DNA of 64,000 nt from Eledone cirrhosa (lineage: Eukaryota). The translations under genes were made by a program, and so were the position numbers. Below the pieces are notes generated by a model that was given only the letters and a program-made list of their open reading frames with translations, ran no database searches and was not told the origin of the DNA. Shown one piece after another: positions 7,205 to 63,037 of the stretch; the first letter of the stretch is position 1; every line of letters begins with the position of its first letter. Location of the stretch: NCBI GenBank assembly GCA_964016885.1, contig OZ024744.1:45136001-45200000 (forward strand). Reading direction: 5' to 3'.

Positions 7205-7264
7205 CCTTTTTGGTTCATTTTGGCTTGATTGGAGCACTATAAGGGGACACTGTAATATGGTCAC
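7205..7264 (-). other. Most downstream type-A exon copy, carrying an in-frame TGA ([16 protein letters not shown])
   Basis: TCA>TGA relative to the other copies; splice sites intact. Confidence 0.6.

Positions 7265-63037: not shown

What the first reader, a model, noticed from the sequence alone, without database searches (positions are those of the whole stretch)
7205..62192. Hidden gene: 34 tandem 60-nt phase-1 mini-exons that look like a satellite
Seen: a roughly 250-bp unit recurs 34 times, always in the same orientation. On minus it reads ...tttgtttatatattctag|GT GAC CAT ATT ACA GTG TCC CCT CGC ... AAA AAG G|gtaagttata. The ag-to-gt distance is 60 nt in 33 copies while flanks vary in length. 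Phase 2 starts with TGA in most copies, phase 0 hits TGA or TAG in many, and phase 1 is open in 33 of 34. With the type-B exons, 37 intact exons give 2256 nt, about 750 aa of S/T/P/K-rich repeats ([40 protein letters not shown]). Established: arrays of symmetric exons can be skipped or included without frameshift, as in the titin PEVK region. Inference: an unrecognised repeat protein, probably disordered, with many S-P motifs (possible proline-directed kinase sites), whose length and composition could be tuned by splicing and copy number. I do not recognise the protein.
Basis: partly seen in the sequence, partly recalled or inferred. Interest (0 to 1): 0.92.

Follow-up and report, generated by a model that had tools for sequence, protein, structure and literature searches.

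The report
Mini-exon gene family on octopus Z
The apparent satellite is a run of 60- and 66-base pieces with splice signals and one shared open frame, set between a likely start exon and a likely end exon, in a family of about 17 gene copies that lies mostly on the likely Z sex chromosome of an octopus-like animal and would make a long, floppy, probably sperm-cell protein whose predicted length differs about tenfold between copies.

Summary
Observation confirmed: 34 type-A and 7 type-B units on the minus strand; 37 are intact (2,256 nt) and only phase 1 stays open. They belong to a whole gene model: an ATG exon 10 kb beyond the window (73 aa, basic amphipathic helix, phase-1 donor), 43 mini-exon units, and a terminal exon at 5948 (stop, AATAAA). 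The genome holds 17 start exons and 18 end exons; 16 pair up 51-224 kb apart. The six genes read in full have 27-285 units (about 525-5,800 aa). A second subfamily keeps the 60/66-nt lengths, splice sites and frame although its cores are only about 50-70% identical. Stops are depleted (4 against 12.7 expected); dN/dS is about 1. Ten of 17 copies lie on contig C28, probably the cephalopod Z; the window's copy sits in a head-to-head palindrome. No homologue was found and no RNA run was available, so splicing and expression are untested. Best reading: an unannotated, Z-centred ampliconic family built like DAZ or NBPF (not homologous), encoding a membrane-tethered disordered phospho-repeat protein, likely of the male germ line.

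The parts
5736..5948 (-). Putative terminal exon: acceptor, two codons, stop TAA at 5943-5941 in phase 1, 3' UTR, AATAAA at 5741-5736
   Evidence: 18 copies in the genome at 88-100%; stop is TAA or TAG in most fetched copies, read-through for about 20 codons in the C18 clade
4145..5730 (.). About 1.6-kb retroelement-like insertion just after the AATAAA, with an about 19-bp target-site duplication; absent from the mirror and other fetched copies
   Evidence: 451-aa ORF on + at 4110-5462
7205..62192 (-). Array of 34 type-A units (33 x 60 nt, 1 x 54 nt), phase 1-1, 20-residue S/T/P/K repeats
7205..7264 (-). Last type-A unit; in-frame TGA 10 nt before its donor (also in the mirror copy)
11034..11093 (-). 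Type-A unit with AT in place of the AG acceptor (probably skipped)
45419..45478 (-). Type-A unit with CT in place of the GT donor (probably skipped)
51397..51456 (-). Type-A unit with CT in place of the GT donor (probably skipped)
62139..62192 (-). 54-nt type-A unit (6 nt shorter, frame kept)
21777..21842 (-). Type-B unit, 66 nt, phase 1-1
31552..31617 (-). Type-B unit, 66 nt
37720..37785 (-). Type-B unit, 66 nt
46103..46168 (-). Type-B unit, 66 nt
52081..52146 (-). Type-B unit, 66 nt
54711..54776 (-). Type-B unit, 66 nt
62972..63037 (-). Type-B unit, 66 nt (inside the window, outside the finding's coordinates)
63038..64000 (-). Intron running off the window end. Beyond it (window numbering extended) lie a B unit at 64649-64584, an A unit at 65416-65357 and the first coding exon at 74021-73802 (G000:C28:45210021-45209802): ATG plus 73 codons plus 1 nt, GTAAGT donor in phase 1; basic amphipathic helix, Pro-Cys-Tyr, polybasic helix

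Best explanation
The repeats are likely the internal exons of a real but unannotated protein-coding gene, one of about 17 copies of a family centred on the probable Z chromosome, and its predicted product is a long disordered phospho-repeat chain likely tethered to a membrane by its basic, cysteine-bearing N-terminal helix and likely used in the male germ line. Shown: the anatomy (ATG exon, phase-1 60/66-nt units, terminal exon with stop and AATAAA), the family, the palindrome, the spread of 27-285 units per gene, and retention of length, splice sites and frame across subfamilies. Inferred: every intact unit is spliced in the same phase, so unequal crossing-over in the intron-exon units (A-A-B blocks of about 1.8 kb in subfamily I, B-A blocks of about 1.45 kb in subfamily II) adds or removes 20-22-residue repeats without breaking the frame, and units that lose a splice site drop out harmlessly. 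Selection keeps frame and length, not the amino-acid sequence. The head (amphipathic helix 9-26, Cys14 and Cys28, net +11 to +14 in residues 1-42) would bind the cytosolic face of a membrane, probably with S-acylation; the near-neutral S/T-rich tail with S-P/T-P sites would act as a phosphorylation-tuned spacer or scaffold whose length is set by copy number. Odds by step: coding gene family about 0.9; C28 is Z about 0.85; male germ-line expression about 0.55; membrane tether rather than nuclear about 0.55; window copy itself expressed about 0.7. The confidence below is for the first three together.
For: Anatomy: phase-1 donor on the ATG exon matches phase-1 units and a phase-1 stop exon. 16 of 17 start exons pair with an end exon on the same contig and strand 51-224 kb downstream. 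No antisense units inside the 12 gene stretches tested. Of 603 units, 373 of 389 A are 60 nt and 202 of 214 B are 66 nt. Subfamily II keeps 60/66 nt, AG/GT and an open phase 1 with core identity to subfamily I of 0.52 (A) and 0.66 (B) against flanks 0.85 and 0.83 (with fixed-length global alignment 0.59 against 0.75 and 0.65 against 0.83). Stops on parsimony trees 4 against 12.7 expected, P=0.005; 70 flank indel events against about five length variants in cores. Two further 63-nt phase-1 unit types near the 3' end of subfamily II. Exon 1 open in 15 of 17 copies, with a 6-nt in-frame indel between subfamilies. Helices 3-25 and 29-43 predicted; hydrophobic moment 0.66-0.75, reached by 7-114 of 5,000 shuffles; no 19-residue window above Kyte-Doolittle 1.02, so no signal peptide or membrane span. 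Z: C28 (136.5 Mb) stands after size-ordered contigs and carries the only OCIA match and a PRPS-family match 78 kb apart; OCIAD1 and PRPS1 are neighbouring loci of the conserved coleoid Z block (PMC10925132 Table S6). Head-to-head palindrome with 97-99% arms. Ampliconic X-linked families in primates are mostly testis-expressed, palindrome-linked, fast-evolving and often disordered (PMC13616518). A full CRE 8-mer lies 450-640 nt upstream of the ATG in 16 of 17 copies (weak, noticed after the fact).
Against: No transcript, junction or peptide evidence was obtained. dN/dS is 1.1-1.4 on trees, 0.72-1.40 pairwise and 0.83 for exon 1: no purifying selection on residues, which is also what neutral DNA gives. 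The decay control is inconclusive: 9 of 48 units broken in head-less or pseudogene copies against 21 of 391 in four subfamily-I genes with an intact head, but 14 of 106 once the recently amplified 285-unit gene is left out. Several copies carry internal stops or frameshifts between intact splice sites (43.4-Mb gene: one stop, three 58/61-nt units; C18 9.38: a stop in an early A unit; mirror: one 59-nt unit). Six of 17 copies are on C18, a probable autosome. The SPAG9-like exon is on an unplaced scaffold and the strongest PRPS-family matches are on C27; no read-depth test of Z linkage. Tissue and subcellular site rest on analogy only. FoldIndex of the repeat part is near zero (-0.04 to +0.16), so disorder is likely but not strongly predicted for subfamily II.
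Confidence: 0.5

Rival explanations
1. Same coding family, but the product is nuclear or chromatin-associated (VCX-like in plan: basic head plus variable repeats). The two basic clusters act as a nuclear localisation signal and the S-P-R repeats bind DNA or are CDK sites during spermatid condensation.
For: KKR and KRxRRR clusters in exon 1; 19 S-P-R motifs in the window gene and 91 in the largest; VCX is an X-ampliconic disordered testis family (PMC13616518; its basic-head-plus-repeat layout is recalled).
Against: The repeat part is close to neutral (K+R 0.11-0.16, D+E 0.11-0.12) and subfamily II has no S-P-R in the two genes read in full; the amphipathic helix and its cysteines are kept in all 10 aligned heads.
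Confidence: 0.2
2. Real coding family, but somatic (for example neural, muscle or skin), with the phase-symmetric units used for regulated combinatorial splicing.
For: All intact units are phase 1-1 multiples of three, so skipping is frame-neutral; several unit types exist; six copies are autosomal.
Against: Long runs are near-identical higher-order repeats, so skipping would change length rather than sequence; donors are strong GTAAGT consensus; 10 of 17 copies and all basal lineages are on the 4.6% of the genome that is C28.
Confidence: 0.2
3. A once-coding family that is now largely silent; the arrays expand as selfish tandem DNA and the exon signature is a residue of the past.
For: dN/dS about 1; at least two copies with a broken exon 1, a head-less copy at 44.2 Mb and a scrambled cluster at 45.47-45.58 Mb; inconclusive decay control; retroelement at the window copy's poly(A) site.
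Against: Stops and frameshifts depleted across both subfamilies; all four stops seen are on terminal branches; 15 of 17 heads open; the window copy's only stop is in the last unit, 10 nt before the final junction.
Confidence: 0.08
4. Non-coding satellite or transposon-derived repeat that mimics exons by chance.
For: No homologue in any protein library searched; three units of the 45.5-Mb cluster are inverted.
Against: The first 100 of 133 exact matches are all on C28; 83 of them lie in oriented runs upstream of an end exon; length and frame kept at 50-70% core identity; paired start and end exons.
Confidence: 0.02

Closest known systems
Human DAZ (Y chromosome, AZFc)
   Same: Sex-chromosome multicopy gene in head-to-head inverted pairs; a short repeat (24 aa) encoded by one tandemly duplicated exon, 8-24 copies, polymorphic in number (PMC2322974, passages).
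   Different: No RRM or any Pfam domain here; two to four unit types of 20-22 aa; up to 285 units; probable Z of a cephalopod; no sequence homology found.
NBPF / Olduvai (DUF1220) family
   Same: Multicopy lineage-expanded family; unique N-terminal part followed by tandem additions of a three-unit exon block; intrinsically disordered product (bioRxiv 10.1101/2021.07.06.450945, passages). Here A-A-B blocks are repeated about 90 times in one gene.
   Different: Olduvai is about 65 aa from an exon doublet; here each exon is one 20-22-aa repeat; no Pfam match; NBPF is autosomal (recalled).
Primate X-ampliconic disordered testis families (VCX, GAGE, SSX)
   Same: Sex-linked, palindrome-associated, more than 97% identical copies, fast protein evolution, mostly disordered (PMC13616518, abstract and passages).
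   Different: Those proteins are short and their repeats are not separate exons (recalled); testis expression is shown for them and untested here.
Schistosome micro-exon genes (MEGs)
   Same: Most of the coding region in small symmetric exons; high dN/dS (PMC4350168, passages).
   Different: All MEG products have a signal peptide; this protein has none. Here exons are 54-66-nt tandem duplicates carried with their introns.
Titin PEVK region / nebulin exon arrays
   Same: Many small symmetric exons encoding low-complexity repeats (recalled).
   Different: Single-copy conserved muscle genes with folded domains; here a multicopy, fast-evolving family with no domain.

Membership tests
Protein-coding gene with tandem symmetric exons | Start exon, internal exons and terminal exon in one compatible phase and orientation | tested here: met
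Protein-coding gene with tandem symmetric exons | Length, splice sites and frame kept across diverged copies; stops and indels depleted | tested here: met
Protein-coding gene with tandem symmetric exons | Purifying selection on amino acids (dN/dS below 1) | tested here: not met
   about 0.7-1.4
Protein-coding gene with tandem symmetric exons | Spliced transcripts | not testable with these tools
   no RNA holder listed; the three runs laid behave as DNA
Sex-chromosome ampliconic gene family | Multiple copies at 97% identity or more, in palindromes or tandem arrays | tested here: met
Sex-chromosome ampliconic gene family | Location on the sex chromosome | tested here: inconclusive
   contig order and OCIA/PRPS matches favour C28 = Z; SPAG9-like exon unplaced; no depth test; 6 of 17 copies on C18
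Sex-chromosome ampliconic gene family | Testis-biased expression | not testable with these tools
DAZ/DAZL/BOULE | RNA recognition motif | tested here: not met
   exon 1 has no Pfam match better than E 0.02; a splice-site scan of the gene span showed no other convincing exon
NBPF/Olduvai | Olduvai domain of about 65 aa from an exon doublet | tested here: not met
   units are single 20-22-aa exons; no such match for the head; the repeats themselves were not searched against proteins
Schistosome MEG | Signal peptide | tested here: not met
   basic N terminus, maximum 19-residue hydropathy 0.72-1.02
Dispersed transposon or satellite | Genome-wide spread in both orientations | tested here: not met
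   first 100 of 133 and first 100 of 363 exact matches are all on C28 in oriented clusters; the rest were not listed

The most novel reading that the evidence does not exclude
The cephalopod Z, an ancient sex chromosome, carries its own ampliconic male-germ-line gene family, convergent with DAZ, VCX and NBPF but unrelated to them; the protein's length is a genomic dial of 20-22-residue exons, one copy has about 287 exons and encodes about 5,800 residues, and the family has recently seeded an autosome.
Probability: 0.42. Interest if true: 0.8.

Novelty: new variant of a known kind. Interest (0 to 1): 0.62.

Why it matters
If expressed as predicted, this is a whole gene family hidden under repeat masks, with one member among the most exon-rich genes known (titin's roughly 360 exons recalled for scale). 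It would give the cephalopod Z a class of gene expected from mammalian X chromosomes (palindrome-held, fast-evolving, disordered, testis-expressed) that my searches did not find reported for cephalopods. [quoted passage not shown] It also offers a clean case of selection on frame and length without selection on sequence.

Tried and rejected
RNA evidence: no RNA holder listed; three runs of unknown kind were laid on 17400-23000; their contigs run across exon-intron borders and the 15 joints shown (of more than 1,100) are repeat artefacts, so they act as DNA and say nothing on splicing. Homology: exon 1 alone and as a 10-sequence alignment found nothing among longer proteins; the profile search of 1.84 billion representatives gave one hit, P0001, E 2e-4, an unrelated S/P/R repeat protein; Pfam best E 0.02; ESM Atlas no usable hit. 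These blanks are weak: a LINE ORF of the window found a best hit of only 62% and no named octopus protein, so cephalopod coverage of the library may be thin. The 19-residue repeats were not searched against proteins, which leaves open a relative that shares only the repeats. A nearby 60-bp-period array (3-23 kb, beyond the 3' end) was checked as a mucin-like exon and rejected: it is a 5-mer-derived satellite with stops. Other donor-like sites upstream (extended 79833, 85479) have no convincing open frame. JIP_LZII gave no match. The decay control was inconclusive. Earlier findings of this scan: none. Literature searches with no describing paper: (listings only). The chicken Z amplicon paper is not held and is recalled only; PMC7849413 passages and PMC13669787 passages gave nothing on Z amplicons.

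Full report
Observation. A BLAST of one unit against the window finds 34 full copies, all on the minus strand, from 62192 to 7264. 33 span 60 nt and one 54 nt; 30 have canonical AG...GT at 60 nt, two have a CT donor and one an AT acceptor. Phase 1 has a stop in 1 of 34, phase 0 in 16 of 34, phase 2 in 34 of 34. Seven 66-nt type-B units: 0, 7 and 6 of 7 with stops in phases 1, 0, 2. Many copies come from recent block duplications, so these counts alone prove little.

The whole gene. The window is G000:C28:45136001-45200000. In 200 kb of flanks the array continues with one B and one A unit and stops at extended coordinate 65416. At 74021-73802 lies an ATG exon of 73 codons plus one base, ending in a GTAAGT donor in phase 1. 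At 5948 an acceptor whose upstream intron resembles that of the A units opens an exon that stops after two codons in phase 1 and has AATAAA 207 nt on. Joined in a script, head, 39 intact units and tail give 869 aa; including the last A unit ends the protein at its TGA, 10 nt before the final junction, where decay would not be expected (the 50-nt rule is recalled from vertebrates). The gene lies in one arm of an inverted repeat centred near extended coordinate 95.8 kb, arms 97-99% alike over at least 85 kb each, with a mirror gene of 27 units.

The family. The start exon has 17 copies (two further short hits cover only the downstream end of the query) and the end exon 18; 16 pair on the same contig and strand 51-224 kb apart. 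Ten start exons are on C28, six on C18, one unplaced. 15 of 17 are open. Six genes were read in full: 43, 27, 285, 36, 83 and 45 units, of which 39, 22, 278, 31, 68 and 40 are intact; predicted lengths 869, 525, 5,813, 699, 1,518 and 940 aa. The 285-unit gene is mostly A-A-B blocks of about 1.8 kb. The first 100 of 133 exact matches to an acceptor-plus-core pattern are all on C28 in oriented clusters; 16 form a cluster at 45.47-45.58 Mb with no head or tail found and three inverted units, three precede a head-less end exon at 44.2 Mb, one is an orphan at 34.25 Mb. No antisense units lie inside the 12 gene stretches tested.

Coding constraint. Subfamily II (73% head identity, 6-nt in-frame indel) keeps units of exactly 60 and 66 nt between AG and GT, open in phase 1, and has two more 63-nt phase-1 types near its 3' end. 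With partners chosen by flank alone, core identity between subfamilies is 0.52 (A, 10 pairs) and 0.66 (B, 4 pairs) against 0.85 and 0.83 for flanks (local alignment inflates the flank value; fixed-length global alignment gives 0.59 against 0.75 and 0.65 against 0.83). By eye, part of the A difference is a compensated four-base shift that keeps 60 nt. Among 603 units, 373 of 389 A are 60 nt and 202 of 214 B are 66 nt; 14 had no donor called. On parsimony trees of 234 distinct exact-length units there are 4 stop gains, all terminal, against 12.7 expected (P=0.005), and 70 indel events in 70 flank columns; cores of other length were left out of the trees and amount to about five variants (54, 57, 58, 59, 61 nt). 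Against this, dN/dS is 1.1-1.4 on these trees, 0.72-1.40 pairwise and 0.83 for exon 1; gene conversion and my counting of multi-base codon changes bias the tree values upward, so I read them as no constraint on residues, possibly weak positive selection. A decay control was inconclusive: 9 of 48 units broken in head-less or pseudogene copies (many picked by an intact-acceptor pattern) against 14 of 106 in the three shorter subfamily-I genes and 7 of 285 in the long one.

Organism and chromosome. The genome has molluscan haemocyanin in runs of seven units; one unit scores about 650 bits against PDB 6r83, 4yd9 and 1js8 and 460 or less against other single units. That these entries are squid and octopus, and that seven units mark octopods, is recalled. 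Of 22 early-numbered contig lengths seen, C1-C27 fall with number (C16 is a 0.8-Mb piece), C28 is 136.5 Mb and C29-C31 are under 60 kb, the place usually given to a sex chromosome. PMC10925132 (parts 1-2 of 5 read; supplement passages) lists PRPS1, UBE2K and OCIAD1 as neighbouring loci of the conserved coleoid Z block. The only OCIA match is at C28:58.93 Mb (a proper exon) and a weak PRPS-family match is 78 kb away. The stronger PRPS-family matches are on C27 and an unplaced scaffold, and the SPAG9-like exon is unplaced. I put C28 = Z at about 0.85. In a tree of the 17 head regions three C28 lineages lie outside a well-supported clade of the six C18 copies plus one C28 copy (midpoint root), which favours origin on C28 and a recent move to C18, not formally tested.

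The protein. The head is predicted as two helices, 3-25 and 29-43, then coil (pLDDT 86-94 over residues 1-40). Residues 9-26 are amphipathic and residues 1-42 carry net +11 to +14; two cysteines are kept in all ten aligned heads and subfamily II has a third. There is no signal peptide or membrane span. The repeat part is 25-28% S+T, 6-9% P, near neutral, almost free of aromatics and cysteine, with 18-189 S-P/T-P sites. Amphipathic helix plus cysteines plus a basic patch is the usual plan of an acylated peripheral membrane anchor (recalled); the same basic patches could be a nuclear signal.

How it most likely works. Shown: anatomy, family, copy-number spread, frame constraint. Inferred: splicing of the units, growth and shrinkage by unequal crossing-over, harmless loss of dead units, a membrane-tethered disordered phospho-chain, and male germ-line use by analogy with X-ampliconic families (PMC13616518, abstract and passages). 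A CRE 8-mer upstream in 16 of 17 copies fits a promoter there but is weak at this divergence.

Comparison and novelty. It is built like DAZ (PMC2322974, passages) and NBPF (bioRxiv 10.1101/2021.07.06.450945, passages) and shares symmetric small exons with schistosome MEGs (PMC4350168, passages), but fails the defining tests of each. No homologue was found, with the caveat of thin cephalopod coverage and that the short repeats were not searched. Searches of the open literature found no description (PMC10925132 has no mention of amplicons or palindromes); subscription papers, genome annotation files and unseen supplements of cephalopod genome and gonad-transcriptome papers could hold gene models of this family. 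Verdict: a real feature, most likely a real and unannotated gene family; a new variant of a known kind; interest 0.62, limited by the absence of any expression evidence.

Noticed in passing
window 4145-5730: Retroelement-like insertion with an about 19-bp target-site duplication that copies the gene's AATAAA; present in the window arm only, so it post-dates or escaped arm-to-arm homogenisation.
   Followed up: partly
extended window coordinates about -17.5 kb to beyond 184 kb (C28:45.12-45.32 Mb): Palindrome of at least 200 kb, arms 97-99% alike; a gypsy-like element with long ORFs lies at its centre (93.2-98.4 kb). The arms differ in array length (43 against 27 units).
   Followed up: partly
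G000:C28:45.47-45.58 Mb: Cluster of at least 16 type-A units in mixed orientation with no start or end exon found: a scrambled or decaying copy.
   Followed up: partly
C18 8.28 gene (L051, L052, L067-L072): Eleven B units share a GA donor in place of GT, and a 63-nt unit before the end exon has a GC donor in all four subfamily-II 3' ends fetched.
   Followed up: no
about 450-640 nt upstream of the ATG (extended 74657): Full CRE palindrome followed by a TATA-like run in 16 of 17 copies, duplicated in the C18 clade; a palindromic MITE-like element lies about 500 nt further up.
   Followed up: partly
window 2385-3560: 33-bp tandem repeat (36 copies, 94% matches) open in frames on both strands; lies beyond the end exon.
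   Followed up: no
L021-L024 (C28:43.158-43.181 Mb) and extended -13.3 to -10.4 kb: 5-mer-derived satellite downstream of subfamily-I genes, 23 kb in one copy and 3 kb in another.
   Followed up: partly
G000:C26:21.93-22.02 Mb and C1:173.7-173.9 Mb: Haemocyanin genes occur as an inverted pair on C26 and three tandem copies on C1, mostly with seven matched units each.
   Followed up: no
runs X1-X3 on window 17400-23000: Contigs over unit-bearing stretches differ from the window by up to about 8% and have depths of 200-370 against 10-30 for neighbours, suggesting a differently expanded array in that sample.
   Followed up: no
window, many introns (e.g. 8672-9388, 57885-58949, 60180-61640): Dense RTE-type LINE fragments inside the array, in line with the LINE enrichment reported for coleoid Z chromosomes (PMC10925132); density not measured against autosomes.
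   Followed up: no
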